Source: Candidatus Nomurabacteria bacterium (GTDB lineage: Bacteria; Patescibacteriota; Minisyncoccia; Phycocordibacterales; UBA918). Taken from it: a stretch of DNA of 64,000 bases. The notes below the pieces were generated by a model. That model was not told where the DNA came from. It ran no database searches and saw only the letters and a program-made list of their open reading frames with translations. Below, piece after piece: positions 11,601 to 63,264 of the stretch; positions within the stretch are counted from its first letter, which is position 1, and each line of letters opens with the position of its first letter. Where the stretch lies: the NCBI GenBank assembly GCA_020632075.1, contig JACKGH010000001.1, positions 387,216 to 451,215 on the forward strand. Direction: 5' to 3'. The translations under genes were made by a program, and so were the position numbers.

Positions 11601-11768
11601 AGAGAAGTCTTCTTCGACACGCTGTCCGACGAGATCGAATTGAGAGAGGTCGGTGGTGATGTCAGGTGCTTGATTTGGTTTAAAAAATCCAGAGAGATAC
11701 AACACGAAAAACACAACTGCTACTCCAGCCAACACAATTAACGTTCGGTACGTACCTGTACCTGGCAT
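5628..11768 (-). CDS. giant membrane-anchored surface protein with about 28 FG-GAP (integrin-alpha-like) repeats, about 2046 aa
   Basis: ORF track 5628..11810 (TTG); likely ATG start 11768 (MPGTGTYRTLIVLAGVAVVFFVLYL TM anchor); after a roughly 380-aa non-repeat region, repeated about 60-aa units FGxSLAxGDxNxDGxDDLxVGA...GRxYxFYG run to the C-terminus. Confidence 0.8.
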   Translation of the reverse strand: MPGTGTYRTLIVLAGVAVVFFVLYLSGFFKPNQAPDITTDLSQFDLVGQRVEEDFSQYPLVSLSEERTLTDTLKDGVEITYGNQASTTFASPDLSESLSLQFPDSLNEPLTITLPGNRQFTVRHNTTQPHRASLLTAGTNEDTVPDTLREGSMTWPSGPERSLSEVVSGAVSPQYLKYTSEDNRLHTYYAYQKDQAAGYRNLKHWTIFQTGTGHETQSYTFSNAHLTTNDRGEVEVRYLPTNTPPEPGVEEDLWARAQRTIAADMLADIENRAPDLIIPAPYTIDAQGNQQTHEWQVTKASTIDPNDTSGDYVLSVSFDVPLLGYPIALDPTLQFTAPGVSNSGDVITGEATNSEYGKAVAIGDWNSDGKTDLAVGAHDYDDGGSTDIGRVYIFWGGESTGYAADAPVIITGEVAGDLFGYSLTSGDVNGDGTDDLLVGAYNYDVSNTEGRVYIWFGGPIESGSANTADVTLTGSIAGENTGTAIGVADYNGDGVKDVAVGAYGYTSRTGRTYIFYGPVSSDVTSNADVVYTGEAGNNFFGYAITSGDLNSDGIDDLVATARAYSVTQGRAYVFYGGSMSSSSASAADVVLSGGASSMFFGNSVTIGDLNNDGTDDLAIGAIAVSSSQGAVYIFYGGMMVSESASGADVTLTGESSTNGQFGFTLAQGDLNADGSDDLVVSAPGYDVTTNEGRVYVFYGGSIISGNATSADLIITGESTSNFFGYNALAVADLNHDGKEDLVAGAYAYNSSQGRTYIFYSQSGQVNLDQHITGEGTSDYFGKSFATGDFNNDGRDDLAVGAYLDNSNAGKVYIFYNDGDYTTLASTSDVTLTGDSSSNFGGALAVGDFNSDGVDDLVVGASIKTTLTGEVYVFYGGAMVSEGASGADVTLTGEATVSFFGSSLAVGDYDADGKDDLAVGAFLYGGSKGRTYVFYGDLVSEYASTSDVLYTNDGTAEAFGYSLATGDLNSDGIDDLIVGATGYSSNLGRAYVFYGGSLASSSDSLADVILTGTIAASAFANALTIGDFNSDGRDDLVIGAPGYSSNQGRVYIFYGNILASTTDSAADVTLTGEALSSFGTALTAGDLNHDGQTDIVVGAWQYNTYQGRTYIFYNDGSYPTAAASADIIITGDSTNDDFGHAFITGDFNADGKDDLVIGAPGYNNGGDTGRIYFYETREDYAWEIQRSPLSDGLRVDPIMGYELKITGESASNLFAAASAIGDLNNDGKDDLVVGAYSYNSNAGRVYIFYNDGSYQTKAGRADVIIEGEAATNYFGVNLEIGDLNNDGKDDLVVGATLYGGTVGRAYIFYGGGIASGNATDADVVLTGEGASNSFGSALAVGDFNADGVEDLAVSANSYSSATGRAYIFYGGSMITENASGADVTLTGQATTNNFGTSLATGDFNSDGEDDLAVGANTYGSYEGRAYIFYGGAMISENASGADAIITGEAGNSYLGVVLSSGDFNSDGSDDLVVSAHGYNSSQGRAYIFYGGSIITENASGADVTLTGEATSNSFSLDLISGDFNHDGMEDLAVGAVGYNSSQGRAYIFYGGSIITENASGADVTLDGETGYYGRYMAAGDINNDGGDDLVIGAHLYNSNQGRLYFYTTNDWQVTGAASEDDLGKDVVVGDFNNDGKNDLAVSAAGYNSNQGRTYIFYGGVKHSTTTTSADVTLTGDSGTAFGTALTKGDFNNDGVDDLVVSATSYGSGAGRTYIFYGGSLADGDASDADVTLTGEGILGYFGHSLTTGDYNADGTDDLVVGAYGYSNGGNTGRAYVFYGGSMIDENATGADVTYTGEGTSNYFGDRVATGDFDNDGIDDLVVGAYVYSNTGRAYVFYGGSMSSANASTADVIMTGVGTSAYFGGALTVGDYNADGKDDLAVGSYRYDSFSGRVYVFYNATLSGSISASSADVILSGEASSDDNLGTTLATGDFDRDGVDDLAVGAWRSDTFTGDVYLFYGDNLHTSDAIDSGVKISGEATNSNFGISLAAGDVSGDGVDDLVIGAHGYDDSSNEGRVYIIMSEAATRAQGSFKQQGELLLRGNIKFE
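7081..7700. repeat. near-identical 84-nt DNA repeats with 180-bp period inside the FG-GAP gene
   Basis: 7081..7164 and 7261..7344 differ at 1 nt (gtaacatc vs gtcacatc); related copies start at about 7441 and about 7621; correspond to repeated protein segment GRAYIFYGGSIITENASGADVTLTGE. Confidence 0.8.
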
Positions 11769-11848
11769 GACACTAATAATAGCACTGCAACACCTGATCT
11801 TTTTCCACAAGTTAACAGTAAGATAGGGCTTTTGGAGCAGCCCGCTGC

Positions 11849-30156: not shown

Positions 30157-32139
30157 TTAGTCTTCTTTTTGAGCAACGGCAAACGTGTCCATCATCCACG
30201 CATCAAACGTATCAGCGAGACGCGCCGCCATCTCCTTACTAATGTGATCATCATCCATGATCACCAACAAGTCTTCCTCCGAGACATACTTCCGACATAC
30301 CGACCCTGGACAAATATATTCATACGGGTCAAAAATAGACACATTGGCATACTCACGAGCTACCTCCGCATACAGATCTCGTATAAATGCAGCGCGTGCA
30401 AGATCGTCAGTTTTAGATAATTCGCAATGACGACCAAGTAGTGCGCACGACTGGGGTCCAGAAGCGAACACTGGCGTTGGCGCGATGAAGATCAGTTCGA
30501 CCGCTGGATCGAACCGCTCAATATACTCTCGTACACTTTTCTCAAGCACCTGAGCATATTGAGGCTGCTGATCAATATGTAGAGAAGTAACGTAGTACAC
30601 CGTTTCAAAGGATTCACTCACTCTGTTCACTTCGCTCGCACGAGCTTGTATCACGTCGCTACCCGCCACAAACTCAGACGTCAACGGCACTCTCGGAAAG
30701 CCGTCAAAATAAAACGCATCCACTACCCGAGACTCTTCAAACATCGGAATAAAGTGCGTCGCGTGGCTATCTCCGGTTAGATACAGCAAGGTGGAATCGC
30801 CTTGCTGACCAGCAACAAAACATTCTTCTCGTAAGCCATACCTATTAAGATCACTTGTAGTATCTCCATACCCACACACTGTCACGGATCTACCAAAAAA
30901 AGTCTGTGCTGGCTGAACTCGATCACCGAGCGAGAGTGTTCGTTCAATATAATTAATACTTTTGCTCGTATGAGAAAAATCATTGAGGGCTGTGTTGACC
31001 TGCAACCTGATCATATCGACCTGTGTCAGACTGAACACAACAATGGTGGCCGCGGTTACCATAATGAGCTTCCACCGACTAACTAGCGCAGATAAGAATT
31101 TCTCCAACCCACTTGAATAGCGGAGTGGCGTTTCTACCAGATGATACGAAAGCACCGCTGCTGCAACAGTTGCGACTGTCGCTACCAAAACAAAGGCTAC
31201 AGCATCCAGATACAGTCCTGCAAAATAGATCACCGGTAGGTGCCAGAGATACAATGAATACGATATTTTTCCGACGTACAAAACGACGCGATTACCTAGC
31301 ACCCTCTGATTCAGGAAAGCCGTCCCGCCAGCCAAGATGATAAAGACCACAGACAACACCGCGAAAAATATCTCCAGCTGCAAGCCAAATCTCGCCTCAG
31401 GGAAAAACTGCAGAATACCAATGATCGTCAATCCTGCAGCAGCAAAGTAGTTTGGTATAGCATACTGCTCCAGTTTCTCCCGCAAGAAAAACAAAGCACA
31501 ACCAACGCCCAACTCCCAAAAACGCGCAACTGGTGAATAGAACGCACCGATCAATTCATCGGCGTAATAGGTAGAGATCAGAAAAAACACACACGCCACC
31601 CCAGCAATAATAAAACCCGCAGTATGTATCGCCAGCTTCCGCTGGCGGACCCACCAGAGGATCCCAATGAGCAGAAGCGGGTACAGCACATAAAACTGCT
31701 CTTCCACACCTAGTGACCATGTATGCAGCAGCGGATTGATCAGATCCTGATGAAAGTATTCGTCACCACGGAATAAAAAGTATACATTCGAAAGCGCGAA
31801 GACTGAGCTGACTGCGCTTTTCACAAATAAATTTGTATCCCAAAGGAAGCCGAAAAACAGATACAGTACGGTAGTACCAAGCAGCATGCAAAGCAGCGCT
31901 GGATACAAACGCTTAAATCGCCGTACATAAAATTTCTTCAGATCGACCCTGCCGTTTTCTAGATACCCTTTGTAGAGCGACTGGGTAATAACATACCCCG
32001 ATATGACGAAGAAAATATCAACACCCAGGTACCCACCCTGAAAGTGGTCCGGATACATATGAAAAAGGATCACCGCGATCACCGCGATCGCTCGCAATCC
32101 ATCGATGTAAGGAATGTATTTCAAACTTGCTGCACGCAT
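30157..32139 (-). CDS. acyltransferase family 3 (OafA/YrhL-like O-acetyltransferase) with C-terminal SGNH-like domain
   Basis: MRAASLKYIPYIDGLRAIAVIAVILFH...GVDIFFVISGYV N-terminal AT3 signature, about 10 TM, then soluble about 300-aa domain (GDSHATHF). Confidence 0.8.
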   Translation of the reverse strand: MRAASLKYIPYIDGLRAIAVIAVILFHMYPDHFQGGYLGVDIFFVISGYVITQSLYKGYLENGRVDLKKFYVRRFKRLYPALLCMLLGTTVLYLFFGFLWDTNLFVKSAVSSVFALSNVYFLFRGDEYFHQDLINPLLHTWSLGVEEQFYVLYPLLLIGILWWVRQRKLAIHTAGFIIAGVACVFFLISTYYADELIGAFYSPVARFWELGVGCALFFLREKLEQYAIPNYFAAAGLTIIGILQFFPEARFGLQLEIFFAVLSVVFIILAGGTAFLNQRVLGNRVVLYVGKISYSLYLWHLPVIYFAGLYLDAVAFVLVATVATVAAAVLSYHLVETPLRYSSGLEKFLSALVSRWKLIMVTAATIVVFSLTQVDMIRLQVNTALNDFSHTSKSINYIERTLSLGDRVQPAQTFFGRSVTVCGYGDTTSDLNRYGLREECFVAGQQGDSTLLYLTGDSHATHFIPMFEESRVVDAFYFDGFPRVPLTSEFVAGSDVIQARASEVNRVSESFETVYYVTSLHIDQQPQYAQVLEKSVREYIERFDPAVELIFIAPTPVFASGPQSCALLGRHCELSKTDDLARAAFIRDLYAEVAREYANVSIFDPYEYICPGSVCRKYVSEEDLLVIMDDDHISKEMAARLADTFDAWMMDTFAVAQKED

Positions 32140-36206: not shown

Positions 36207-36233
36207 AAGGCGTCCGAAGACGCCTTTGTTGTG
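36207..36233 (+). terminator. rho-independent terminator AAGGCGTC-CGAA-GACGCCTT + TGTTGTG
   Basis: 8-bp stem after ung stop. Confidence 0.6.
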
Positions 36234-36255
36234 CTCCCGAAGGAGCGTGAGAAGA

Positions 36256-36549
36256 TCAGTAGTAGTCCAGCTTGCTGCCGAAACGTTCGATCTCGGAGAC
36301 GCGGAAGTTTTTGGTCTTTCCGCCATCCGCATCGACAACGACCACAAGGGTCGTTCCTTCGAACGCCGCACCAGCATCGAGTGCGATGGACTGACCATTG
36401 GTCAGAACCACGTACTTGCCGGGCATACCGTCATGAAGACCGAGCTCGCGCTTCAGTCGCCGCGCACGAAACAGTGCCTGACTCCAGCCAAGCAAGCGCT
36501 CGTGGAGCGGCTTCTGCAGCACAGCGTGGTTGCGAAGAACTTCGCCCAT
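36256..36549 (-). CDS. hypothetical protein (97 aa), last gene of GH26-GT2 operon
   Basis: Protein-like composition whereas overlapping + ORFs are Arg-rich antisense junk; no family confidently assigned. Confidence 0.4.
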   Translation of the reverse strand: MGEVLRNHAVLQKPLHERLLGWSQALFRARRLKRELGLHDGMPGKYVVLTNGQSIALDAGAAFEGTTLVVVVDADGGKTKNFRVSEIERFGSKLDYY

Positions 36550-36627
36550 AAGTCACCTCCTCAGCTACTGCTGAATTGCATTGAACATAGATCACCTACC
36601 TACAGTTTGCCAGTATTTTCCAGGCTG

Positions 36628-38049
36628 TCAAGCCGGGCACACAAACTCCTCGAACGGAATGAACCACACCTCGCCCTTTGACTCATCCGCACCCTTGCGC
36701 GATCCCCAGACACTAATGCGACCGGGTGTGAACAACGCTTGAAAGCGAATGAATTGCCACCAAGTGACCAGGACCACGAACATCGGCAACACCATGAGAC
36801 GACGCGGATGTCGTACCAGGTGCCACAGTTGCCGTGAACCAAAGGTCAGCATGGTCCCAAGGAACGAAAAGACGATCAGGAAGAACAGTGGCATAAGCGG
36901 CTCTCGCTCACTGAAGAACAAAAGCCAAAACCACCGTCCGACCAAGAACACCGTGATCAGTGTCAGCAAGAGATCCGTGTAGTACTGATACATCACGAAC
37001 CACTGCTTCCGGAACCACGAATACTTGGTCGAGATGAAGGTCAGCCACTGACTCGAGGTTGCCCAACGGCGGAAGATGCGATTGATCTGCCGAAGCCGCT
37101 TTGGCATTGAGGTCACCACAGTCGCCCGAGGGTTCATGACTGTGTGATAGCCCAACTGTTCCACTCGAAGCGTCATCTCGCGGTCATCGCCAGCATGTAG
37201 CTGCACACGACGCATACCAACAAACGGGAATGTACTTTTCAGAAACGGTACATTCCAATAGTGCTCGACGAGTTGATCCATCCAACCAACGATGATCTCG
37301 GACCGGATCATATACAACCGACCAGGCAGACAGCCAACCTGTCCAAACAACGTGCCAGCCGCCATCGACGAGCCGATACGCGAATCCTCCAGCCAGTCGA
37401 GCACCTGCAGCAATGGCGTATCCGGATTACGAATACGCTGGGCCGTGGTCACTCCACCGATCTTCGGATCTGCAAACGGCCTGAGCAGTTCACCGACAAT
37501 ATCATCGTTTGGTGTCGTGGGGACCGTGTCAGAATCGTGGAAAGCTGAAAATTCATACAGCAACCCTCGATCCTTCGCCCACTCCACCGCTGCTTCGAGC
37601 ACCTTACCCTTTGCTTCTGGGTCCTTAGCCCACCGAACGCCGTTTCGCAGATTTTTCCGCTTACTCCGCGCATTGGTCATAAAGACGTGCGCATCATACT
37701 GCTTTGCGATCTTCGCGAGCTCGATCCCCTCCTCAGGATAAATATCTGCCGCATCAATGATGCAGACGATCGCATATTTGTCGGTCCACTTCTCGTACGA
37801 AGCGCACATCAGCCTAAGCGACTCATGCATCACTGCATGATCCTCGAGATAGACCGGCATGAAGTGAGTCACACCACCAGCCGACTTTTGCATGGGGTAC
37901 TGCATGAACAGTTCCCCACGCGCCAACTTTCGATGTGCCCACCAGCCGAGTATCTGCCGCGGTATCACGATCAGTGATACGAGCAAAAACATTGAGACAA
38001 AGAGTGTGAACTCCATATAGAAGAACACATCCCTACTGAATGTGAACAT
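36628..38049 (-). CDS. membrane glycosyltransferase family 2 (processive, cellulose/chitin/hyaluronan-synthase-like)
   Basis: N-terminal TMs, catalytic region with DAAD..., GDDREMT, QRIRNPDT, FRRWATSSQW (QxxRW-like), C-terminal TMs; GGGAGGGG SD. Confidence 0.8.
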   Translation of the reverse strand: MFTFSRDVFFYMEFTLFVSMFLLVSLIVIPRQILGWWAHRKLARGELFMQYPMQKSAGGVTHFMPVYLEDHAVMHESLRLMCASYEKWTDKYAIVCIIDAADIYPEEGIELAKIAKQYDAHVFMTNARSKRKNLRNGVRWAKDPEAKGKVLEAAVEWAKDRGLLYEFSAFHDSDTVPTTPNDDIVGELLRPFADPKIGGVTTAQRIRNPDTPLLQVLDWLEDSRIGSSMAAGTLFGQVGCLPGRLYMIRSEIIVGWMDQLVEHYWNVPFLKSTFPFVGMRRVQLHAGDDREMTLRVEQLGYHTVMNPRATVVTSMPKRLRQINRIFRRWATSSQWLTFISTKYSWFRKQWFVMYQYYTDLLLTLITVFLVGRWFWLLFFSEREPLMPLFFLIVFSFLGTMLTFGSRQLWHLVRHPRRLMVLPMFVVLVTWWQFIRFQALFTPGRISVWGSRKGADESKGEVWFIPFEEFVCPA

Positions 38050-38063
38050 ATACTGTCCCCTCC

Positions 38064-39569
38064 CTAGCGAGCCAGATCGACTTCGCCACTCACTGTGAAT
38101 TGAAGACCGACGTAGTTATCTTGTCGGTCACTGTATCGATCCGGCGTTGCACCAGTAGTGAACCAGGTCTGACGACCAACGAGTTCCAATGACCAGTTAC
38201 CCCAAACCAAGCTATCGTGTGGCAGCTTACCGTACGTTCCAAGTGAAGCCTCAGCATACGTTTGGTTATTCCACCACTGCTCATTATTGTCTGGAGCTTC
38301 CACAAACCCAAACTTCAAGCCCGGGCCAGCTTCGACATCTTCAGCAATACCCCAGAGAGCACGCTGTCTCACATGACCACGGATCAGTGGACCGGCCTTG
38401 CCAAACGGCTGACCAGAGGCTGGATTGATTGCTGGATTATCAGCTTCATCAAATGGAAGCGTCATTTTAACGTAGAAGTTAAAGGGTGCACGAAAATCTT
38501 TCCGTACCGATCTTTCTTGCTCAGGCACATCAATCGTACCTGCCCACTTCTGCCGATATTCGCTCAACAGATCGCGAAATGCTCTGCGTTCAGCGTCATC
38601 AGAAAGCCCCCAGTCAATAACAACCGTATTGGAAGCCTTTCCGACTGGCACTTGACCAAAGTAGAACGTGATCATCTCGACCCGCGGAAAATCAGTATGA
38701 ATTGATTCCAACATCTTCCGGAACCACGCCACCTTCTTTCCGCCAGTACACTGACCAGAGGTCGACACCTCCGCAATATTGATCGGACCGGCGACACCTC
38801 GACGAATGAGCTCGTTGTAGATTGGACGAAACTCGTACTGAAACGAACGTTCGTACCTATACTTCGGCGCAGTACCACATCGATTGTACGTCGAAATGGC
38901 TGTGGCGGGCATAAAGCGGTTTATTTGAGCGACATACCGATCACCATCTTTTAAAACCCCTTCACCTCCTGCGTCAGTGCGATTGTAGTTCACCTCGTAG
39001 TAGCGCACGTTCACCTTTTCTCGTTCGAAAATGGAGACTATGTGACTCTCTGCTGCTACCGCCAGTTCTGGAGTGTTCCCCGTTGCGTACATGCCCCAGG
39101 GATACCAGTTGCCATTGAGCTCATGCATAACACGAAGCGCCGCCAGCTGCCGACCGTCTTTCTTGATTTTGGCCGACAGCTCATACAGCGCTTCGTCGTA
39201 CACACCAGTAAGCACTTGCCAGTGTATCCCAGCAACTTCATTACCAAGGCTCGTCGCCTCGCTTGAACCGACAGTAGACGTAACACCATCATCAACGATG
39301 ACAGTGAGGACCACTTCGTAACCATGATCAAGATACTCGCGCCGCACCCATTCGTAGGGATTAGCTCGGTTCTCATCCGACATAAGCTTGTAGTACAGGG
39401 TGGCACAGGTGATCCCCACCTCTGTCATTCGCTGCTTGTGCTCTGTCGCACTCCACATATCATCCTTGCCAAGACAAAACTCCCGTTTTGCCTGAGAAGG
39501 TGCCGCAGTGGAAACGCCCGACAAGACTAGCGAACACAGCAGTAACCACCACACATGTTTTCTGATCAT
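38064..39569 (-). CDS. secreted glycoside hydrolase, GH26-like (beta-mannanase fold) candidate
   Basis: Signal peptide MIRKHVWWLLLCSLVLSGVSTAAP; RVMHELNGNWYPWG resembles the GH26 HE(M/F)NGxW(F/Y)WWG catalytic-acid motif; AAGGAG SD. Confidence 0.55.
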   Translation of the reverse strand: MIRKHVWWLLLCSLVLSGVSTAAPSQAKREFCLGKDDMWSATEHKQRMTEVGITCATLYYKLMSDENRANPYEWVRREYLDHGYEVVLTVIVDDGVTSTVGSSEATSLGNEVAGIHWQVLTGVYDEALYELSAKIKKDGRQLAALRVMHELNGNWYPWGMYATGNTPELAVAAESHIVSIFEREKVNVRYYEVNYNRTDAGGEGVLKDGDRYVAQINRFMPATAISTYNRCGTAPKYRYERSFQYEFRPIYNELIRRGVAGPINIAEVSTSGQCTGGKKVAWFRKMLESIHTDFPRVEMITFYFGQVPVGKASNTVVIDWGLSDDAERRAFRDLLSEYRQKWAGTIDVPEQERSVRKDFRAPFNFYVKMTLPFDEADNPAINPASGQPFGKAGPLIRGHVRQRALWGIAEDVEAGPGLKFGFVEAPDNNEQWWNNQTYAEASLGTYGKLPHDSLVWGNWSLELVGRQTWFTTGATPDRYSDRQDNYVGLQFTVSGEVDLAR

Positions 39570-39607
39570 TTGTCTGATCTCCTTTTCAAAGGACTATGAA
39601 AAACACA

Positions 39608-39626
39608 GCCGGCCCAAGGGGCCGGC
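39608..39626. terminator. GC hairpin GCCGGCCC-AAG-GGGCCGGC (hairpin family variant) + T-run on minus strand; terminator of tailspike-like gene
   Basis: Read directly; TGTGTTTTTC follows on minus strand. Confidence 0.6.
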
Positions 39627-39669
39627 CACTCCTGTGCCTAAAGTACAATAGAATTATTACTATGTAAAG

Positions 39670-42600
39670 CTATTCGTTTGGAGGAGATTCGACTACTTCT
39701 TCTGGGTTTTCGTTTGCTGTTTCTTCCGCACTGACCTCGTCAGCTGGAAGAGGTTCGTTTGGTACTTCCTCCTCAATAACCTCCTCCTGCTCATCAGACA
39801 CAGCTTCGTCTTCAGAGTCTCCTGAAACCTCTTCGTCGTCTTCAATCACTTCATCTGTAGTGGTCGAAGTGTCTTCCAAAACCTCTTCCGTACCAGCAGC
39901 AGATGTCGTCGCAGTCTCTTCGTCTGTTGGAAGCACGCCAACTGGCTCAACCACCTTGTCTTCGTCATCTTCTTCAACTGGTTGTTGTTCAACTCCCAAC
40001 TCAGCTTCTACTTCAGCCAATCTCTCTTCAAGCTCGGCAATACGCTGCTGGTTGCCAGTCACAGTCTGCCAGATCTCTTGAATAGCAGTTACCACTGCCG
40101 CCAAGATCGGCCTCGTTGAAAGAGTTTTGTAGCCATCAGGATTTTCTCCCACTGCTTCTGGCAGGAAGTCTTCTATGTTTTGTGCCGAGAATCCAGCATA
40201 GATGGTGGTTTGATCATAGCCACTTTTTTCGTTCCAACTGTAACGAATTGGCCTGATACTGAGTATTTCGTCGAGCCCAGCTTCGTATGCCCCTAGAATA
40301 TTCTTAAGTCGTTCGTCGGAACTGACTGTCACATTACCGACTGCGTCAGTTTCAAGCGTACCGCCAACAATACCCGCAAAACGCACACCACTGGCTACAG
40401 TAAGCATAGCTGTTGGACTAGTGGTACCAATCCCAACATACCCGTTGGTATCGATAGTGAGACGCGAGGTGTTGTTGGTCTGGAAGCGTAACTGATGATT
40501 TGAGAAGGTGCCAAAGAAGCCTTGGAAGTCTTCCGCACGCATATCGAAGATCACGTCGTTGGTCGTATCACGGAAGCGAGCTCCGGCGCCGGCCGGCGCT
40601 ACGATATTCAAAAGTCGACTATCAGTACTGCTACCGATGTTGATCTGCCCATCGTAGATCAAGCCGCCGATCGTACTCGAAGCCACCCACTTGTTGTGAT
40701 AGAGCGGCGGCGGGGTTTCGGTCACACCATCCTCACCAACCTTCACGATCGATCCTTCTTCGATTATAAAATTATCATTACCACCATCGTCGCTGTACGC
40801 TTCGTTCATACCCCAAAGCTGCCCTTCGACTTTTACATATGACGCATTTGAGACACGCACGCCAGTCAATGGTGCAACTGGCGGATTGCTACTGTCGTCT
40901 TCACCAATAATCTGCGAAAGGCCGTTGATAAAGACAGGCGCAACTTGTGCGGTCGATGAACCAATGATCGCTACGCCGGCATATGGTGTCTCGGTACCAC
41001 CACTAGAGTTTGGTCCGTCACGGCGCGTAAGGAGGCCGTTGAAGGTTACGGTAGTTGTACCCGTCAGTGAGATACGTACGCCATGACGGTCGTTGCGGTC
41101 GGTTGAGAAGTCAGTGAACATCATACCGCCGTTGCTTGACGATCCGTCGATGTAGAGACCAGTGAGTCCATTGAATACAGCACGTGAGTTGTTGATCTTG
41201 GTTTCACCCATCGAAGAGAGGTAGATTCCTCGAAGCGCATTACCAACTGCCAAGAGATCCTCAATGTATGAGTCGTTGAGTGCAGTGGCTCGAAAGCCGT
41301 GACCATCGGCACTATAAATAGAAAGACCACGGATAGTGAACCCGCGAGGGTTACCACTACCCGTACCAACTGCCGCTTCAAAACCATTACCGGTCACCTG
41401 CGAAATATCGACGTCAGTCAGTTTCCAATCGCGCACCAAACCTTCAAAATAGACACCGTCCACATCAACGCTGGCCGAACCACCATCGAGACTGAGGTAC
41501 TCGAGTCGACCACCGTTGTTGTGGTTAGTTTCGCCTGAGATAGTGCGGTCGCGCACATGGATCAATGCTGCACCCGAGAAGGTCCCAAAGTCAGCCCGGA
41601 TCGAGCTGCGTGGTGTCGAGCTATACGACCAACGCGGTGAGTACGCACCACGAAGCGTGACTGGCGTATCGAGTACGATCGGACTTGAAATACGATACTC
41701 GCCCATTGGGAAATAGACAGTACCACCTTCGCCACACGCGGCGATCGCTGACGCGATCGCCGCGTCATTGATCGTACTATTGTCACCCACCGCACCATAC
41801 GCCTCCACGTTACACACCTGCCCACCCGTATCGACGAGTCGTGCAGTGGTCGTACCAGCCGAAAGCGTACCTGCGACAGTGAGTGTTTCACTCGGGGTAC
41901 TGGTGCCAATACCAACATTGCCTGTAAGCCGAAAGACGTCACCACTGACAGCAGACCAGTTGGCGGTTGATGAACCAGCCAAGACAACTCCACCCCAGTA
42001 CAGATCACCACCAAAATTGTAGAGGCGATTCACAACATTACTCGGTGACACTTCAGCCAAGTACAGCGCACCTGCCAAAGACAGTGAATCAGCCGGGCTG
42101 CTGGTACCAATACCAAGACGACCAGTCACGTATGAGGTACCCGAGAGGATCGCATCAGCCAGCGTCGGTGTAGTGAGTTCTGCCTGTACAAAAATATCCT
42201 GTTGCACAGCATCGACTCGCTCATAGATACGATCGACTGATTTGAGGACATAATCTCTTGTCGAAAGTGAGCTCGTCGCTTGCACTCCGTCAGCAGTCGC
42301 AATCGCTGCACTGTGTGGTAAAGAATTAATGTATTGCAACACCTCTGTGATGCGTTGATTCAGCAATGATTCTGAAACGCCCGACTGCTGGATCGTTACG
42401 TACTCGTTGGTGATCGTCTCATAAGTGACTGGGTACGTACTTGTCGCAAGCTCTGGATCTTTTTGTGTCACTGATTCACCAAGCACTACTGGATCTGGGT
42501 TTGGTTCATCGAGATGCTGGATCGGCGTAGCTACCGCTACTGATTGTGCACATCCTCCAAAGGGGCGCACCATCCATCCAAACCAGTCACAGAAAAATCC

Positions 42601-42690
42601 TTGTTCACCGGTATTCGCACTCGCAAAAAACGGTGTGGTCAGAGTACTAACCAAAAACACCACCGCTACCATCCGAAGTGCGATTCGCAT
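39670..42690 (-). CDS. secreted right-handed beta-helix (pectate-lyase-superfamily) protein with C-terminal intramolecular-chaperone (peptidase S74-type) domain and acidic low-complexity tail; tailspike/depolymerase-like (1006 aa)
   Basis: Signal peptide; VEAYGAVGDNSTINDAAIASAIAACGEGGTVYFPMGEYRI pectate_lyase_3-type N-terminal signature; long Gly/Asn/Thr-rich beta-helix region; SDERLKNILGAYEAGLDEILSIRPIRYSW...RIAELEERLAEVEAEL chaperone-domain signature; then about 120 aa of E/D/T-rich low complexity. Confidence 0.75.
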   Translation of the reverse strand: MRIALRMVAVVFLVSTLTTPFFASANTGEQGFFCDWFGWMVRPFGGCAQSVAVATPIQHLDEPNPDPVVLGESVTQKDPELATSTYPVTYETITNEYVTIQQSGVSESLLNQRITEVLQYINSLPHSAAIATADGVQATSSLSTRDYVLKSVDRIYERVDAVQQDIFVQAELTTPTLADAILSGTSYVTGRLGIGTSSPADSLSLAGALYLAEVSPSNVVNRLYNFGGDLYWGGVVLAGSSTANWSAVSGDVFRLTGNVGIGTSTPSETLTVAGTLSAGTTTARLVDTGGQVCNVEAYGAVGDNSTINDAAIASAIAACGEGGTVYFPMGEYRISSPIVLDTPVTLRGAYSPRWSYSSTPRSSIRADFGTFSGAALIHVRDRTISGETNHNNGGRLEYLSLDGGSASVDVDGVYFEGLVRDWKLTDVDISQVTGNGFEAAVGTGSGNPRGFTIRGLSIYSADGHGFRATALNDSYIEDLLAVGNALRGIYLSSMGETKINNSRAVFNGLTGLYIDGSSSNGGMMFTDFSTDRNDRHGVRISLTGTTTVTFNGLLTRRDGPNSSGGTETPYAGVAIIGSSTAQVAPVFINGLSQIIGEDDSSNPPVAPLTGVRVSNASYVKVEGQLWGMNEAYSDDGGNDNFIIEEGSIVKVGEDGVTETPPPLYHNKWVASSTIGGLIYDGQINIGSSTDSRLLNIVAPAGAGARFRDTTNDVIFDMRAEDFQGFFGTFSNHQLRFQTNNTSRLTIDTNGYVGIGTTSPTAMLTVASGVRFAGIVGGTLETDAVGNVTVSSDERLKNILGAYEAGLDEILSIRPIRYSWNEKSGYDQTTIYAGFSAQNIEDFLPEAVGENPDGYKTLSTRPILAAVVTAIQEIWQTVTGNQQRIAELEERLAEVEAELGVEQQPVEEDDEDKVVEPVGVLPTDEETATTSAAGTEEVLEDTSTTTDEVIEDDEEVSGDSEDEAVSDEQEEVIEEEVPNEPLPADEVSAEETANENPEEVVESPPNE

Positions 42691-42744: not shown

Positions 42745-44277
42745 TTACGCCAACCCAGGGAAGAAATCTCGAACGATCTGACTTTTTGGAACACCTGCGC
42801 TCTGGAGTAGTTTTGTGTACGCATTGACCATTGGTGGCGGCCCAGAGAGATACCAGGTACGCTCAAGATAATCAGGTGCTCGACGCTTGAGCATTTCGAT
42901 CGTGACATACCCTTCCTCAGCTGGCGCATTCACCGCTTCCTTTGCGATCACTGGGATCACTTCAAGTGGCATGTTATCAAGGGCTGACATAAACTCATCG
43001 ACGTAGGCCAACTCATCTGCAACATTACAGCAGTAAAACAGCTTTGTGTCGTGCTTCTTGCCACTATCAACCATATACTGAATATGACTACGGAACGGCG
43101 TCACTCCAATCCCTCCCGCAATCAGACCAAGCTTCACCTCTTCATCCTTTGGTAGCACAAAGTCGCCAGCCAATTGACTCGCAACGATCTTCTCCCCAGC
43201 ATCGAGCTTCATGAGTTCACACTTGTATGAACTTCCCTTTTCTACCAGCTTAAACGCCAATCGGATCTTGTCTTCGGTCGGCGATGAAGCGATCGTAAAG
43301 TAGCGACGGGTTCCACGACTATCTGCTGCTTCGTGATGTAACATCCACTCGAGGTACTGACCTGCTTTGAAGGTGAAGCCTTTCGGTTTCGCAAACACAA
43401 ACTCCCAAGTATCCTGAGCGATCTGTCGCTTTCCTTCAAAGGTCAAAAACAACTTCTGACGGACTCGCCACGGCAGCATGATGACATTGGCGATCACTAG
43501 TGCCAATTCTGGCGAAACATACAAGAAGGAAGAAAAGATAGACGAGTGTGACAGAAAGCCGACCAATCCACCATACAACGCCTGCGGTCCTTTCATAGCT
43601 GGCATGGTGAATGGCTCAGTGAGCATGTAAAAAGCCAAGAAGAGTACTGGCCATGAAAGGAAGAAGGTGCGAACAGCTTCACTGACTGGCACCTCATGGC
43701 TGATCGACTCAGCAATGTAAATAACCAAACTGACACCTATAAATGTGAGTACCGGCACCCACTTGCGGACTTTCATTACAACCAGTGAACCAAGTATCAC
43801 AAGAGGAATGAACAATGTCGGATTCCCTACCCACCAACTAAAAGTGTAGACTCCGGTAACGCTAAGCGCGGCTGCACCAAAGGCAGCTGGATTAAGAAAA
43901 TGCTGCTTCTTGGTCACAATGACAAACTTCGAAATGACAGCGATCATCACTGCTAAGACAAGTGGCCAGTTGTCGAAGATGTTTTCTTCCGGAATAGCAA
44001 GGAAAAACAAGATCACCGCCGTAATAGCGGCGGATTCATGGTTGGCTGGTATCTTTGTTATAAGCGCGATGATCCAGTTGAGAGACAGCGCCACCAGTAG
44101 CGCAAGTGCCAGAGCAAAAATTTGTGACAGACCACTATAGGCAATCAAGCCAGTGAATCCAGCAATGATCGAACAGGCTGCGAGAGTAAAGAGGGACCCG
44201 AGAACGAGTCGATACATTCCGATCCGGTCAACGAACTGTTGCACGAAATGAAATGGTTTTGAAATTAATGTCATCAT
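42745..44277 (-). CDS. membrane oxidoreductase: N-terminal polytopic RnfD/NqrB-like domain fused to C-terminal FNR-like FAD/NAD(P)H-binding domain
   Basis: N-terminal about 270 aa with about 8 TM and FYMLTEPFTMP (resembles FFMATDPVT of NqrB/RnfD family); C-terminal RRYFTIASSP (RxYS/T FAD motif), GGIGVTPFRS (NAD(P) motif), CCNV region typical of ferredoxin-NADP reductase fold. Confidence 0.65.
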   Translation of the reverse strand: MMTLISKPFHFVQQFVDRIGMYRLVLGSLFTLAACSIIAGFTGLIAYSGLSQIFALALALLVALSLNWIIALITKIPANHESAAITAVILFFLAIPEENIFDNWPLVLAVMIAVISKFVIVTKKQHFLNPAAFGAAALSVTGVYTFSWWVGNPTLFIPLVILGSLVVMKVRKWVPVLTFIGVSLVIYIAESISHEVPVSEAVRTFFLSWPVLFLAFYMLTEPFTMPAMKGPQALYGGLVGFLSHSSIFSSFLYVSPELALVIANVIMLPWRVRQKLFLTFEGKRQIAQDTWEFVFAKPKGFTFKAGQYLEWMLHHEAADSRGTRRYFTIASSPTEDKIRLAFKLVEKGSSYKCELMKLDAGEKIVASQLAGDFVLPKDEEVKLGLIAGGIGVTPFRSHIQYMVDSGKKHDTKLFYCCNVADELAYVDEFMSALDNMPLEVIPVIAKEAVNAPAEEGYVTIEMLKRRAPDYLERTWYLSGPPPMVNAYTKLLQSAGVPKSQIVRDFFPGLA

Positions 44278-45574: not shown

Positions 45575-46447
45575 ATGCAAAAAGAATTCGAAGCCCTCGG
45601 CACAAAATGGTGGATCACTATTTTTGATGAGACTTCAACAGAAACCCTCGAGGCGGCCTTCGGCCGCCTCGAGGGTTTTACGCGCGCGTATGAAGCAAAA
45701 TACTCTCGCTTTAAGCCAGATTCGCTCATTTCCACCCTCAACCGTGAGCGGGTATTGGAGCAGCCAGATCAGGACTGCCGCGCGCTTCTGACGTACGGCA
45801 AGTCACTCTATCTGCGCACCAACACGCACTTCAACCTCCTCACCGGCCACATCCTCGAAGCGCGCGGCTACAACGCCACCTACACATTTGAATCGCACGA
45901 ACCGGAAAAAGAAACACCAGGCAACCCAATCACCGACCTACTTATTTCAGAAGAAAAAATCGAACTGCTCCACGGCAACGTCGACATCGGTGGTTTTGGT
46001 AAAGGCTACCTGATCGACGAGCTCGCAAAGATCCTGCGTGAAGAATTTTCACTGCAGTACTTTTTGATCAATGGTGGTGGTGATATGTACGCTTCAAGCG
46101 AACAAGAAAAGCCGATCGAGATCTATCTTGAACACCCAACCAAGGCACGTCATTTCATCCATCGCACTACTCTCCTCAATCAAGGCTTCGCGGCCTCAAG
46201 TCCTTTTAAGCGTGTCTGGCAAAGCCATGACCAGACCTACACGCACATCGTGACCAATGAAGCCGCACCGCGGGTTGCGTCGTTCATCAAAGCAGGGACA
46301 GCGCGCGACGCTGATGCGTTTGCAACCACCGCGCTCATGCTGTCTGAAACTGAGCTTGCCACACTCTCCCAAACAGAAAACTTCAGCGTCGCGCGCTTTA
46401 CCCCCGCCACCAACCAACTCTGGCAAACCAACTCCTTCAATACTTGA
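45575..46447 (+). CDS. apbE: FAD:protein FMN transferase (ApbE family)
   Basis: DIGGFGKGYLIDE (ApbE DxGGxxKGY motif), overall about 290 aa ApbE pattern; directly downstream of its putative substrates. Confidence 0.8.
   Translation: MQKEFEALGTKWWITIFDETSTETLEAAFGRLEGFTRAYEAKYSRFKPDSLISTLNRERVLEQPDQDCRALLTYGKSLYLRTNTHFNLLTGHILEARGYNATYTFESHEPEKETPGNPITDLLISEEKIELLHGNVDIGGFGKGYLIDELAKILREEFSLQYFLINGGGDMYASSEQEKPIEIYLEHPTKARHFIHRTTLLNQGFAASSPFKRVWQSHDQTYTHIVTNEAAPRVASFIKAGTARDADAFATTALMLSETELATLSQTENFSVARFTPATNQLWQTNSFNT
45642..45678. repeat. 37-nt perfect hairpin AAACCCTCGAGGCGGCC-TTC-GGCCGCCTCGAGGGTTT embedded in apbE coding sequence (codons about 23-35)
   Basis: 17-bp perfect inverted repeat read directly; encodes ETLEAAFGRLEGF; resembles the intergenic GC hairpin family. 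Confidence 0.7.
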
Positions 46448-63259: not shown

Positions 63260-63264
63260 ATGCA

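What the first reader, a model, noticed from the sequence alone, without database searches (positions are those of the whole stretch)
39670..42690. Tailspike-like secreted beta-helix protein with SD(E)RLKNI intramolecular-chaperone domain in a chromosomal (non-prophage) context
- The 1006-aa protein combines a signal peptide, a pectate-lyase-superfamily N-terminal signature, a long parallel beta-helix-like G/N/T-rich region and the C-terminal SDERLKNI...RIAELEERL module.
- In phage endosialidases and tail fibres that module is an autoproteolytic trimerisation chaperone.
- No other phage structural genes are nearby.
- It sits immediately next to a GT2 synthase/GH26-like hydrolase exopolysaccharide locus.
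- It may therefore be a self-trimerising surface polysaccharide depolymerase or adhesin of cellular origin, or a domesticated phage gene. It ends in an unusual roughly 120-aa poly-acidic tail.
Basis: partly seen in the sequence, partly recalled or inferred. Interest (0 to 1): 0.65.

Follow-up and report, generated by a model that had tools for sequence, protein, structure and literature searches.

The report
Cellular tailspike-like enzyme in Patescibacteria
An ultra-small uncultivated bacterium (Patescibacteria/CPR) carries, in ordinary chromosomal DNA, a secreted protein built like a phage tailspike with a self-cleaving assembly domain, always next to a polysaccharide synthase and a glycan-cutting enzyme, so it is probably a cell-surface sugar-processing spike and not a virus part.

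Summary
ORF 39670..42690(-) encodes a 1006-aa protein. In order it has a Sec-type signal peptide, a Cys loop, a stalk with fibre motifs, a right-handed beta-helix (PF12708, 49.8 bits; AF2 pLDDT 85-95), a fibre-like stalk, a Peptidase_S74 chaperone (39.3 bits; Ser791/Lys796 invariant in 37 homologs) and a 109-aa acidic tail (39% D/E, net -42).

No phage genes or tRNAs occur in the 64 kb. The window is Patescibacteria chromosome (V/A-ATPase, MreB, Fpg, UDG).

New findings:
- The order beta-helix/S74 -> GH26-like hydrolase -> GT2 synthase is kept in 14 of 14 distinct Patescibacteria loci, although the flanks differ.
- The GT2 is hyaluronan-synthase-like (Foldseek TM ~0.65).
- The beta-helix core is the most conserved part of the cluster (median 74% identity, against 39% and 34% for its partners). 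Receptor-binding domains of phages do the opposite.
- Its nearest outside relatives are actinophage and prophage tailspikes (28-43% identity) that lack S74.

The best reading is a surface-tethered, self-trimerising glycan-processing enzyme that works with the neighbouring synthase system. The main rival is a host-directed adhesin like the Bdellovibrio MAT fibres. Trimerisation, cleavage and substrate are untested. I rate it a new variant of a known kind.

The parts
42616..42690 (-). Signal peptide, residues 1-25 (MRIALRMVAVVFLVSTLTTPFFASA | NTG)
   Evidence: The protein's only hydrophobic 19-mer segments lie here, with Arg2 and Arg6 upstream and an A-S-A site. Similar N-termini occur in most homologs. 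This is heuristic; no SignalP was run.
42541..42615 (-). Conserved Cys loop, residues 26-50 (C34-x12-C47, FFCDWFGWMVRPFGGC). Function unknown; it may be an N-terminal tethering element.
   Evidence: The consensus C..xGW.V.P.G.C follows the signal peptide in many homologs. In all fetched DNA the motif occurs only at the N-termini of orthologs. P0030 and P0031 carry a PG_binding_1 domain at the N-terminal end.
41839..42540 (-). N-terminal stalk, residues 51-284: linker, two helices (107-123, 145-167), and a G/N/T/S-rich fibre region with two [VL]GIGTSxPxxxL motifs at residues 193 and 260
   Evidence: Conservation is low (median 40% identity).
40726..41838 (-). Right-handed parallel beta-helix core, residues 285-655; putative glycan-processing (depolymerase or modifying) domain
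   Evidence: PF12708 scores 49.8 bits, and Beta_helix and NosD match weakly. phrog_11699 matches at E 1e-33. AF2 pLDDT is 85-95. Foldseek hits include AlgE4, RbmB, DFA-IIIase, phi29 gp12 and tailspikes. Column identity is 0.7-0.9 and median identity across 14 loci is 74%.
40321..40725 (-). Distal stalk or tip, residues 656-790, fibre-like with a third VGIGTTSPTAML motif at residue 753; the segment the S74 chaperone would help fold
   Evidence: phmmer and profile searches match the Bdellovibrio MAT fibre structures 8ojn, 8ond and 8oml. PHROG tail-fibre families match residues 724-790.
40000..40320 (-). Peptidase_S74 intramolecular chaperone/autoprotease domain, residues 791-897, with the Ser791/Lys796 dyad (SDERLK) and a C-terminal helix (859-897)
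   Evidence: PF13884 scores 39.3 bits. S791 and K796 are invariant in 37 sequences. The profile matches solved S74 proteins 8jov (E 2.6e-13), MyRF 7dc3 (3e-12) and 6f45 (8e-10). Codons were checked. AF2 pLDDT is 74-85.
39670..39999 (-). Acidic, low-complexity, disordered tail, residues 898-1006, plus the stop codon
   Evidence: It is 109 aa, 39% D/E, net -42. A tail of 43-160 aa with net negative charge (-5 to -56) is present in all 37 homologs, but its sequence is not conserved. pLDDT is below 35.
39605..39629 (-). GC-rich hairpin followed by a T-run (terminator-like) between the beta-helix/S74 gene and the GH26-like gene
   Evidence: The stem has 11 pairs, 8 of them GC. The sequence is shown. 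Comparable hairpins occur in the same intergenic position in L001, L004, L006 and L008.
38064..39569 (-). Secreted GH26-like glycoside hydrolase (501 aa) with a conserved C-terminal extension
   Evidence: PDB CtLic26A matches at E 1e-12. It has an HELNG motif and an N-terminal hydrophobic segment. Orthologs hit Pfam Glyco_hydro_26. It is present next to the beta-helix gene in every complete locus.
36628..38049 (-). Membrane-integrated processive GT2 synthase, hyaluronan-synthase-like (473 aa)
   Evidence: Pfam Glyco_tranf_2_3 and Glyco_trans_2_3 match. It has one N-terminal and three C-terminal hydrophobic segments, plus DSD and FRRW motifs. D172, D174, the D288-D289-R290 triad and R328-W329 are invariant. 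The AF2 model has pLDDT 89 and pTM 0.88. Foldseek's best hits are Chlorella virus and Xenopus HAS, at TM 0.62-0.66.

Best explanation
The gene encodes a cell-encoded, tailspike-type surface enzyme of a Patescibacteria (CPR) bacterium.

Proposed mechanism:
1. The precursor is exported by Sec through its N-terminal signal peptide and stays tethered by its N-terminal end.
2. Three chains are brought into register by the C-terminal S74 intramolecular chaperone, which nucleates folding of the fibre-like stalk (656-790) and, with it, the three beta-helix domains.
3. The Ser791/Lys796 dyad then cuts the chain at Ser791. This releases the chaperone together with the ~109-aa acidic tail (~215 residues in all). 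It leaves a stable mature trimer of ~765 residues per chain.
4. The mature beta-helix domain binds and cleaves or modifies a polysaccharide. The most likely substrate is the polymer made and extruded by the adjacent hyaluronan-synthase-like GT2, in cooperation with the adjacent secreted GH26-like hydrolase. The comparison is with the glycanases, lyases and epimerases that accompany other synthase-dependent exopolysaccharide systems (BcsZ, AlgG/AlgL, RbmB).

Shown here: the domain architecture, the catalytic-dyad conservation, the cellular context, the conserved gene linkage, the HAS-like nature of the GT2, and homology of the core to phage tailspikes.

Inferred: export, tethering, trimerisation, cleavage, catalysis and the identity of the substrate.
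For: Architecture:
- PF12708 and PF13884 score above their cutoffs.
- The AF2 beta-helix has pLDDT 85-95 and the S74 domain 74-85.
- A profile of the C-terminal region hits solved S74 proteins through the SDxRLK motif.
- S791 and K796 are invariant in 37 homologs.

Experimental precedent: a signal-peptide-bearing cellular S74 fibre cleaves itself, and the cleavage is abolished by Ser->Ala (Bd3182, PMC10769870).

Cellular context:
- There are no phage genes or tRNAs in the 64 kb.
- Composition is uniform across the window.
- Flanks are syntenic in L001, L004 and L022.

Linkage: beta-helix/S74 -> GH26-like -> GT2 lies on one strand in 14 of 14 distinct Patescibacteria loci at 40-66% identity, with unrelated outer flanks.

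GT2 is a HAS-like processive synthase: the AF2 model has pTM 0.88, Foldseek matches HAS at TM 0.62-0.66, and the motifs are conserved.

Core conservation: median 74% identity, against 39% for GH26L, 34% for GT2 and 40% for the N-terminal stalk. This points to one invariant ligand, not to diverse host receptors.

Fold neighbours: the top Foldseek hits include enzymes that act on self-made exopolysaccharides, namely AlgE4/AlgE6 epimerases and the RbmB biofilm lyase.

Tethering: two homologs have an N-terminal PG_binding_1 domain, which fits N-terminal wall tethering.
Against: - No catalytic residues could be assigned. Almost the whole core is invariant, so conservation does not pick out a site. 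Foldseek E-values for epimerases, lyases, hydrolases and tailspikes are all similar, 1e-8 to 1e-5.
- The GH26-like/GT2 pair occurs without any beta-helix/S74 gene in more distant genomes (L023 and L024). The spike is therefore an add-on, not an obligatory part of the system.
- A strong hairpin with a T-run and a conserved promoter-like box separate the spike gene from the GH26-like gene. Co-transcription is not assured.
- Only a monomer could be modelled. The stalk regions have pLDDT below 50.
- The signal peptide was judged heuristically.
- The polymer is unknown. GH26 enzymes usually act on neutral beta-mannans or beta-glucans, whereas pectate-lyase-fold enzymes often act on polyuronides. 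The two hydrolase types therefore do not point to one obvious substrate.
Confidence: 0.55

Rival explanations
1. Host-directed adhesin or depolymerase. The trimer is a MAT-like surface fibre that the epibiotic Patescibacteria cell uses to recognise, hold or locally digest envelope glycans of its host cell. The neighbouring GH26-like enzyme helps, and the GT2 linkage is incidental or serves another step of attachment.
For: - Bdellovibrio MAT fibres are cellular, carry a signal peptide, end in S74 and act in prey recognition (PMC10769870).
- The stalk of this protein matches MAT structures 8ojn and 8ond and has three VGIGTxxPxxxL-type motifs.
- The core's nearest outside relatives are tailspikes of phages that attack Actinobacteria cell envelopes.
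- All cultivated Patescibacteria are described as epibionts (abstracts listed).
- The GH26-like/GT2 pair can exist without the spike.
Against: - The putative binding or catalytic core is the most conserved part, at a median 74% identity across genomes whose other cluster proteins are 34-40% identical. Receptor-binding modules usually vary the most, and the paper stresses the diversity of MAT tips.
- Only one copy per locus was seen, not a diverse repertoire.
- The gene order with a HAS-like synthase is strict in 14 of 14 loci.
Confidence: 0.25
2. Non-catalytic structural fibre. The beta-helix trimer is a scaffold or lectin that anchors or organises the polysaccharide layer, or forms surface spikes, without cleaving it.
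For: - No catalytic residues were identified.
- Very high conservation of the whole core could reflect packing and trimer interfaces.
- S74 fibres can be purely adhesive.
Against: - PF12708-type domains and all the top fold neighbours are enzymes or enzymatic tailspikes.
- Many invariant Asp, Glu, His and Arg residues lie in the core.
Confidence: 0.12
3. Prophage remnant, tailocin or eCIS fibre. The gene is a leftover or cargo of a mobile element and has no cellular role.
For: - PHROG tail families match.
- NCBI names the ortholog 'tail fiber domain-containing protein'.
- A real prophage tailspike homolog exists in Streptomyces (L021).
Against: - No capsid, portal, terminase, tape-measure, sheath, baseplate, integrase or tRNA gene occurs in the 64 kb.
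- The same cellular flanks (V/A-ATPase, ApbE, UDG, Fpg) recur in other genomes.
- Strong purifying conservation holds across about 50 homologs.
- A signal peptide replaces any virion-attachment domain.
Confidence: 0.03

Closest known systems
Phage tailspike/depolymerases with a C-terminal intramolecular chaperone (endosialidase endoNF of phage K1F; GA-1 neck appendage; T5 L-shaped tail fibre; Pfam Peptidase_S74 / CIMCD)
   Same: - The order of parts matches: catalytic domain, then fibre-like stalk, then an S74 chaperone with the S-x4-K dyad.
- Phage proteins that combine a pectate-lyase-type beta-helix with this chaperone are in the viral structure library.
   Different: - The gene lies in a cellular chromosome with no virion genes.
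- A Sec signal peptide and a Cys loop take the place of a virion-attachment N-terminus.
- A 109-aa acidic tail follows the chaperone.
- The enzymatic core is the most conserved region, not the most variable.
Bdellovibrio bacteriovorus MAT (mosaic adhesive trimer) fibres, S74 subgroup, e.g. Bd3182 (PMC10769870)
   Same: - Both are cellular, about 1000 aa, and carry a signal peptide and an S74 end with an SDxxxK motif.
- The stalk shows sequence similarity to MAT crystal structures 8ojn, 8ond and 8oml.
- Capping-loop-like VGIGTxxPxxxL motifs are present.
   Different: - This protein contains a large right-handed single-chain beta-helix enzyme-type domain (PF12708) that the paper does not describe for MATs.
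- It appears as a single conserved gene tied to a GT2/GH26 cluster, not as a diverse multigene repertoire.
- The conserved ~130-aa beta-rich N-terminal domain of MATs was not recognised here (weak evidence).
- The phylum and cell-envelope type differ.
Actinophage and Streptomyces-prophage tailspike / minor tail proteins (phrog_11699; 'GH28-related' proteins)
   Same: They are the closest sequence relatives of the beta-helix core outside Patescibacteria, at 28-43% identity over residues ~290-640.
   Different: - They lack S74; some end in K1-lyase_C instead.
- They sit in tail modules next to tape measure, Dit and endolysin genes.
- A sharp score gap separates them from the Patescibacteria clade: 494 bits or more inside, 329 or less outside.
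Accessory glycanases/epimerases of synthase-dependent exopolysaccharide systems (BcsZ with BcsA; AlgG/AlgL with Alg8; AlgE epimerases; RbmB with Vibrio polysaccharide)
   Same: - A processive membrane GT2 synthase is encoded next to secreted glycan-processing enzymes.
- The top fold neighbours of the core are AlgE4/AlgE6 and RbmB.
   Different: - None of these accessory enzymes is known to me to carry an S74 chaperone or a fibre stalk (own knowledge, not tested).
- The synthase here is HAS-like, not Bcs- or Alg8-like.
- No c-di-GMP receptor or outer-membrane export parts are evident.

Membership tests
Peptidase_S74 / C-terminal intramolecular chaperone domain (CIMCD) | Sequence match to the family model above the curated threshold | tested here: met
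   PF13884 scores 39.3 bits against a cutoff of 22, over residues 791-847 and profile positions 1-57 of 58. A family profile hits solved S74 proteins 8jov, 7dc3 and 6f45.
Peptidase_S74 / C-terminal intramolecular chaperone domain (CIMCD) | Catalytic Ser-Lys dyad in an S-D-x-x-x-K motif | tested here: met
   The motif is S791-D-E-R-L-K796. Both residues are invariant in 37 homologs. The motif is as described in PMC10769870.
Peptidase_S74 / C-terminal intramolecular chaperone domain (CIMCD) | Lies directly C-terminal to a trimeric fibre or triple beta-helix segment whose folding it assists | tested here: inconclusive
   Residues 727-787 match MAT trimeric beta-helix structures and tail-fibre PHROGs. 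The monomer model of this segment has low confidence, and no trimer could be modelled.
Peptidase_S74 / C-terminal intramolecular chaperone domain (CIMCD) | Autoproteolytic release of the chaperone after trimer assembly | not testable with these tools
   This needs expression of wild type against S791A or K796A and SDS-PAGE or mass spectrometry.
Pectate-lyase-like right-handed beta-helix glycan enzymes (PF12708; GH28/GH55/PL-type, tailspike depolymerases) | Family HMM match and right-handed parallel beta-helix fold | tested here: met
   PF12708 scores 49.8 bits. The AF2 core has pLDDT 85-95. Foldseek gives probability 1.00 for AlgE4, RbmB, GH28, Lam55A and tailspikes.
Pectate-lyase-like right-handed beta-helix glycan enzymes (PF12708; GH28/GH55/PL-type, tailspike depolymerases) | Identifiable catalytic residues of a specific GH, PL or epimerase family | tested here: inconclusive
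   NCBIfam gives only far-sub-threshold hits to the N-terminal cap (24 bits against a cutoff of 500). Many invariant acidic, His and Arg residues exist but none can be assigned.
Bdellovibrio MAT fibre superfamily | Signal peptide, trimeric beta-helical fibre with V-G-G/N-x-x-x-P-x-x-x-L capping loops, and a variable or S74 tip | tested here: met
   The signal peptide is heuristic. Three [VL]GIGT(S/T)xPxxxL motifs lie at residues 193, 260 and 753. Sequence hits reach 8ojn, 8ond and 8oml. The S74 end is present. The motif differs from the published consensus by one position.
Bdellovibrio MAT fibre superfamily | Conserved ~130-aa beta-rich domain immediately after the signal peptide (all 21 MATs) | tested here: inconclusive
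   Here the region after the signal peptide is a Cys loop, then a predicted helix and low-confidence linker. No full-length MAT sequence was available for a direct comparison.
Phage virion tailspike / tail fibre (structural component of a phage, tailocin or eCIS) | Encoded within a tail or virion gene module | tested here: not met
   No phage structural, lysis, integration or CIS genes occur in the 64 kb. No tRNA is present. By contrast, the true prophage module in L021 has them.
Synthase-dependent exopolysaccharide gene cluster | Membrane-integrated processive GT2 synthase with D, DxD, (G)DDR and (Q/R)xxRW motifs and a transmembrane channel | tested here: met
   Motifs and hydrophobic segments come, and invariant D172/D174/D288-D289-R290/R328-W329. 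The AF2 model has pTM 0.88. HAS is the best fold match at TM 0.62-0.66.
Synthase-dependent exopolysaccharide gene cluster | Conserved genetic linkage of the synthase with secreted glycan-processing enzymes | tested here: met
   The three-gene order holds in 14 of 14 distinct loci. The GH26-like/GT2 pair also occurs in L023 and L024.
Synthase-dependent exopolysaccharide gene cluster | The beta-helix enzyme acts on the synthase's product | not testable with these tools
   This needs biochemical reconstitution.

The most novel reading that the evidence does not exclude
Patescibacteria have domesticated a phage tailspike. An actinophage-type depolymerase core was fused to a fibre stalk, an S74 self-assembly module and a secretion signal. 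It now serves as a standing cell-surface organelle that the epibiont uses at the interface with its host cell. One possibility is that it cuts through or grips the host's surface glycan while the adjacent HAS-like synthase and GH26 enzyme build and remodel an attachment matrix. This would be a bacterial 'attach-and-feed' module built from viral parts, and the first molecular handle on host contact in Parcubacteria/Paceibacteria-type CPR.
Probability: 0.25. Interest if true: 0.78.

Novelty: new variant of a known kind. Interest (0 to 1): 0.55.

Why it matters
Patescibacteria/CPR make up a large share of bacterial diversity. They have tiny genomes, and outside the type IV pili of Saccharibacteria almost nothing is known about their surface biology. 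A 3-kb gene kept at 74% core identity, always beside a hyaluronan-synthase-like enzyme, in genomes under strong reduction, is likely to matter for their envelope or for contact with hosts.

The finding offers three concrete things:
- An experimentally tractable candidate for a CPR surface structure. The soluble trimer can probably be made in E. coli, because the S74 chaperone is built in.
- An example of a phage tailspike core recruited into a cellular polysaccharide system.
- A second bacterial lineage, after the Bdellovibrio MAT fibres, that uses S74 self-processing fibres outside viruses.

If the enzyme is a depolymerase of a defined beta-glycan or glycosaminoglycan-like polymer, it could also be useful as a reagent.

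Tried and rejected
- NCBIfam gave no equivalog for any cluster protein. All hits were far below cutoff: NodC and PgaC for the GT2, and rhamnogalacturonidase cap-only for the spike.
- I tested the small ORF downstream of the GT2 (36256..36549 -) as a fourth conserved cluster member. Similarity to the small ORFs at the same position in other loci was only 16-26%, and tblastn found nothing. It is not claimed.
- The 36226..36681(+) ORF overlaps that region and has no family hit. It was ignored.
- Four literature searches for S74, tailspike or tail fibre in Patescibacteria/CPR returned no paper describing such proteins. The patescibacterial metatranscriptome paper PMC10936435 does not mention them.
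- The Cys-loop motif was searched in all fetched DNA as a possible shared sorting signal. It occurs only in orthologs of this protein.
- The prophage, tailocin and eCIS readings were rejected on gene content.
- phmmer of the single sequence against the PDB did not reach solved S74 chaperones. A family profile was needed.
- One Pfam call failed on a size limit and one script failed on a file name. Both were repeated successfully.
- Assigning the enzyme class from fold neighbours was attempted and abandoned. Epimerases, lyases, hydrolases and tailspikes score too similarly.

Full report

Yes. An ATG-initiated ORF runs from 42690 to 39670 on the minus strand and encodes 1006 aa.

Pfam gives two domains above their curated cutoffs:
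- Pect-lyase_RHGA_epim (PF12708), residues 293-352, 49.8 bits against a cutoff of 27.
- Peptidase_S74, 'chaperone of endosialidase' (PF13884), residues 791-847, 39.3 bits against a cutoff of 22.
- Beta_helix (residues 422-551) scores 23.9 bits, just under its cutoff of 25.9.

PHROGs matches only tail families:
- phrog_11699 'minor tail protein', E 1e-33, over residues 309-652.
- A dozen tail-fibre families over residues ~724-897.

The codons at 40303-40320(-) read SDERLK.

The only hydrophobic segments are in residues 1-25. They are preceded by Arg2 and Arg6 and end in A-S-A before Asn26. This is a classical Sec signal by rule of thumb, not by a dedicated predictor.

Residues 898-1006 are 39% Asp+Glu and 1% Lys+Arg, with net charge -42.

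**2. Anatomy**

I built an alignment of 37 full-length homologs (A1) and an AlphaFold2 monomer model from it. Together they give this layout:

| Residues | Part |
|---|---|
| 1-25 | Signal peptide |
| 26-50 | Conserved Cys loop, C34-x12-C47 (FFCDWFGWMVRPFGGC) |
| 51-284 | Poorly conserved stalk with two helices and two [VL]GIGTSxPxxxL motifs |
| 285-655 | Right-handed beta-helix, pLDDT 85-95 |
| 656-790 | Second fibre-like segment with a third VGIGTTSPTAML motif |
| 791-897 | S74 domain ending in a long helix, pLDDT 74-85 |
| 898-1006 | Disordered acidic tail |

Ser791 and Lys796 are invariant in all 37 sequences. They form the S-D-x-x-x-K motif that defines S74 autoproteases, as described in PMC10769870.

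A profile of the C-terminal 200 residues reaches solved S74-bearing proteins through the cleavage motif and the chaperone:
- 8jov tail fibre, E 2.6e-13.
- Myelin regulatory factor 7dc3, E 3e-12.
- 6f45 tail fibre, E 8e-10.

The pre-S74 stalk matches the trimeric beta-helix crystal structures of Bdellovibrio MAT fibres 8ond, 8ojn and 8oml.

Every homolog has a tail of 43-160 aa after the chaperone. The tail is always net negative (-5 to -56), but its sequence is not conserved.

**3. Fold of the core**

Foldseek against the PDB places the core among right-handed beta-helix carbohydrate-active proteins. The hits are:
- mannuronan C5-epimerases AlgE4 and AlgE6;
- the Vibrio biofilm-polysaccharide lyase RbmB;
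- an alginate epimerase/lyase;
- DFA-IIIase;
- phi29 gp12;
- GH28 and GH55 enzymes;
- many phage tailspike depolymerases.

E-values span only 1e-8 to 1e-5, so the enzyme class cannot be read from the fold.

Against predicted viral structures, hits include proteins annotated as both pectate-lyase superfamily and 'intramolecular chaperone auto-processing domain'. The domain combination is therefore already known in phages.

**4. Context: cellular, not prophage**

The ORFs of 150 aa or more that I scanned across the 64 kb are as follows (the two at 61853-63966 were not scanned):
- MreB
- an HTH-MurA-like fusion
- Def/Fmt
- TrkAH
- CreD
- acetyl-CoA synthetase
- an AT3-SGNH acyltransferase
- Fpg
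- UDG
- an RnfD/FNR-like fusion with ApbE
- a V/A-type ATPase operon
- TruB
- a GH15 enzyme
- a 2060-aa FG-GAP repeat protein

There is no capsid, portal, terminase, tape-measure, baseplate, integrase or lysis gene, and no tRNA. GC content is even across the window.

Homologs come from MAGs labelled Nomurabacteria, Parcubacteria, Paceibacteria and 'Saccharibacteria', on contigs up to 745 kb. The window is therefore Patescibacteria/CPR chromosome.

**5. A conserved gene cluster**

Immediately downstream on the same strand lie two genes.
- A secreted GH26-like protein, 38064..39569. It matches CtLic26A at E 1e-12 and has an HELNG motif.
- A GT2, 36628..38049.

I fetched related loci in two ways: by exact-protein look-ups and by a scan of one genome per species. 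I then located the three genes with tblastn.
- All 14 distinct Patescibacteria loci with enough sequence have beta-helix/S74 -> GH26-like -> GT2 in the same orientation.
- The two loci that lack a partner end at a contig edge.
- The outer flanks differ: RecG and type IV pilus genes in L003; GH130, PMM and a mannose-6-P isomerase-type cupin in L005; nucleotide metabolism, PGM/PMM and an NTP-transferase in L008.
- Some loci carry one extra ORF between the spike and the GH26-like gene (L005, L006).

The reciprocal test started from GT2 homologs. The GH26-like/GT2 pair also occurs without any spike gene in more distant genomes (L023; L024 has a tandem double GH26-like protein). The pair is therefore the older module, and the spike was added in one Patescibacteria subclade.

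**6. The partner synthase**

- The GT2 has one N-terminal and three C-terminal hydrophobic segments, plus DSD and FRRW motifs.
- D172, D174, the D288-D289-R290 triad (the GDDR motif) and R328-W329 are invariant in 35 homologs.
- Its AF2 model is confident (pLDDT 89, pTM 0.88).
- The model superposes best and nearly full-length on hyaluronan synthases (Chlorella virus HAS at TM 0.62-0.66; Xenopus HAS1), ahead of BcsA and the chitin synthases.
- Distant homologs are annotated as hyaluronan, cellobiuronic-acid or cellulose/PNAG synthase-like.

It is therefore a single-protein, membrane-integrated, processive polysaccharide synthase. The polymer is unknown.

**7. Evolutionary pattern**

Median identity to the window protein across the 14 loci:

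| Region | Median identity |
|---|---|
| Beta-helix core | 74% |
| Distal stalk | 58% |
| S74 domain | 41% |
| N-terminal stalk | 40% |
| GH26-like protein | 39% |
| GT2 | 34% |

In phage receptor-binding proteins the distal or enzymatic part is usually the variable one. Here it is the most constrained part of the whole cluster. That argues for a single invariant ligand.

An exhaustive HMMER search with the core alone found 1932 relatives at E <= 1e-3. There is a sharp break. A tight clade of 14 representatives is 62-87% identical (494 bits or more), and everything else is 45% or less (329 bits or less). The tight clade includes versions up to 2645 aa.

The nearest out-clade proteins have these features:
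- They lack S74, and some end in K1-lyase_C.
- Where named, they are Streptomyces 'GH28-related' proteins.
- One of them lies in an unmistakable prophage tail module: tape measure, Dit, tailspike, endolysin (L021).

In the phage database only the core matches, at 28-36% identity, to tailspike or minor tail proteins of Curtobacterium and Streptomyces phages.

The protein is thus a mosaic of three parts:
- a tailspike-type core shared with actinophages;
- stalk and S74 modules of the kind seen in tail fibres and in MAT fibres;
- a cellular export signal.

**8. How it most likely works**

Shown: the architecture, the dyad, the context, the linkage, the nature of the synthase, and the phage kinship of the core.

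Inferred:
1. Sec exports the precursor.
2. The N-terminus tethers the protein. Homologs P0030 and P0031 carry an N-terminal PG_binding_1 domain.
3. The S74 chaperone drives trimerisation.
4. Self-cleavage at Ser791 discards the chaperone and the acidic tail.
5. The mature trimer binds and cleaves or modifies a glycan.

I favour the product of the adjacent synthase as the substrate (confidence about 0.55). The reasons are the strict synteny, the constrained core, and fold neighbours that process self-made exopolysaccharides.

The main rival (about 0.25) is a host-directed, MAT-like adhesin or depolymerase. In its favour: Bdellovibrio MAT fibres are experimentally shown to be surface-displayed, self-cleaving S74 fibres used on prey (PMC10769870), and cultivated Patescibacteria are epibionts.

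A non-catalytic scaffold (about 0.12) and a prophage remnant (about 0.03) are less likely.

Arguing against tight functional coupling:
- The spike is dispensable for the GH26-like/GT2 pair elsewhere.
- A strong terminator-like hairpin lies at 39629-39605.
- A conserved TTGACA/TTTACA box sits immediately after the spike's stop codon in the window and in seven other loci. It suggests the GH26-like/GT2 genes have their own promoter.

**9. Comparison with what is known, and novelty**

- By sequence it is a member of Peptidase_S74 and of the PF12708 beta-helix superfamily.
- It works like a phage tailspike with an intramolecular chaperone, and it resembles Bdellovibrio MAT fibres in being cellular and secreted.
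- It is not a virion component, because that context test failed.
- NCBI already labels an ortholog 'tail fiber domain-containing protein'.
- Four literature searches in the held library found no description of such proteins in Patescibacteria.

New here are the lineage, the fusion of this particular core to S74, the strict linkage to a HAS-like synthase and a GH26-like enzyme, the inverted conservation pattern, and the universal acidic tail after the chaperone. I rate it a new variant of a known kind, with interest 0.55.

**10. Limits**

- No multimer prediction was run.
- No dedicated signal-peptide predictor was used.
- No catalytic residues were assigned.
- No expression data were found.
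- Taxon labels of MAGs are taken as given by their depositors.

Noticed in passing
window 5628..11810 (-): A giant 2060-aa protein with 27 FG-GAP repeats (Pfam 724.7 bits). ORFs of 2001 and 2038 aa with no Pfam hit on record lie beyond the Fpg gene, at the edges of related loci L004 and L022; their homology to it was not tested. It is probably another large surface protein of this organism.
   Followed up: no
window 39570..39669 (-); L001 10998-11098, L003 10680-10796, L004 10818-10930, L005 11181-11240, L006 5113-5216, L007 2862-2920, L008 10494-10590: A TTGACA or TTTACA box lies within a few bases after the spike gene's stop codon in the window and in all seven other loci examined. In most of them a GC-rich hairpin with a T-run follows, ahead of the next gene's ribosome-binding site. 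The order promoter-like box, hairpin, RBS could be a separate promoter plus a terminator, or a regulatory leader for the GH26-like/GT2 genes.
   Followed up: partly
window 38064..39569 (-), C-terminal ~150 aa; L024 5874-8822: The GH26-like protein has a conserved C-terminal extension with an NNxQWWNNQ motif and no family match. The same module ends a 982-aa protein with two tandem GH26-like domains next to the GT2 in L024.
   Followed up: partly
window 42745..44277 (-) and 45575..46447 (+): An RnfD/NqrB-like membrane domain is fused to an FNR-like NAD-binding domain, near an ApbE flavin transferase and the V/A-ATPase operon. This neighbourhood is conserved in L001, L004 and L022.
   Followed up: no
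window 4003..5502 (+): An HTH_3 DNA-binding domain is fused to an EPSP-synthase/MurA-type enolpyruvyl transferase domain.
   Followed up: no
L021 57..10517 (Streptomyces sp. MAG, NZ_DATDBG010000173.1): A prophage tail module: a 1566-aa tape measure, Dit, a structural protein, a 910-aa tailspike whose beta-helix is 43% identical to the window protein's core, then an endolysin. It is the only non-Patescibacteria hit in the species-level genome scan.
   Followed up: yes
L005 2566..7517; L008 5313..7608: Sugar-metabolism genes lie directly upstream of the cassette in some genomes. L005 has PMM, a mannose-6-P isomerase-type cupin and two GH130 phosphorylases. L008 has PGM/PMM and an NTP-transferase. 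These hint at a mannose- or glucose-based polymer.
   Followed up: no
proteins P0053-P0115; P0203-P0206: Many large (600-1700 aa) proteins from uncultivated bacteria share only the stalk and S74 end, joined to other domains. This suggests S74-terminated cellular fibres are widespread. Within the tight clade some members reach 1791-2645 aa with the same core; P0203 (1799 aa) was confirmed to carry PF12708 plus S74.
   Followed up: partly
window 30157..32139 (-): An AT3 acyltransferase fused to an SGNH domain, a type that O-acylates surface glycans, lies about 4.5 kb downstream of the cluster's GT2 gene (about 7.5 kb from the spike gene). No link to the cluster was tested.
   Followed up: no
window 36628..38049 (-): A protein 100% identical to the GT2 (P0116) is present on short ENA metagenome contigs. 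The same or a nearly identical genome has therefore been sampled elsewhere.
   Followed up: no
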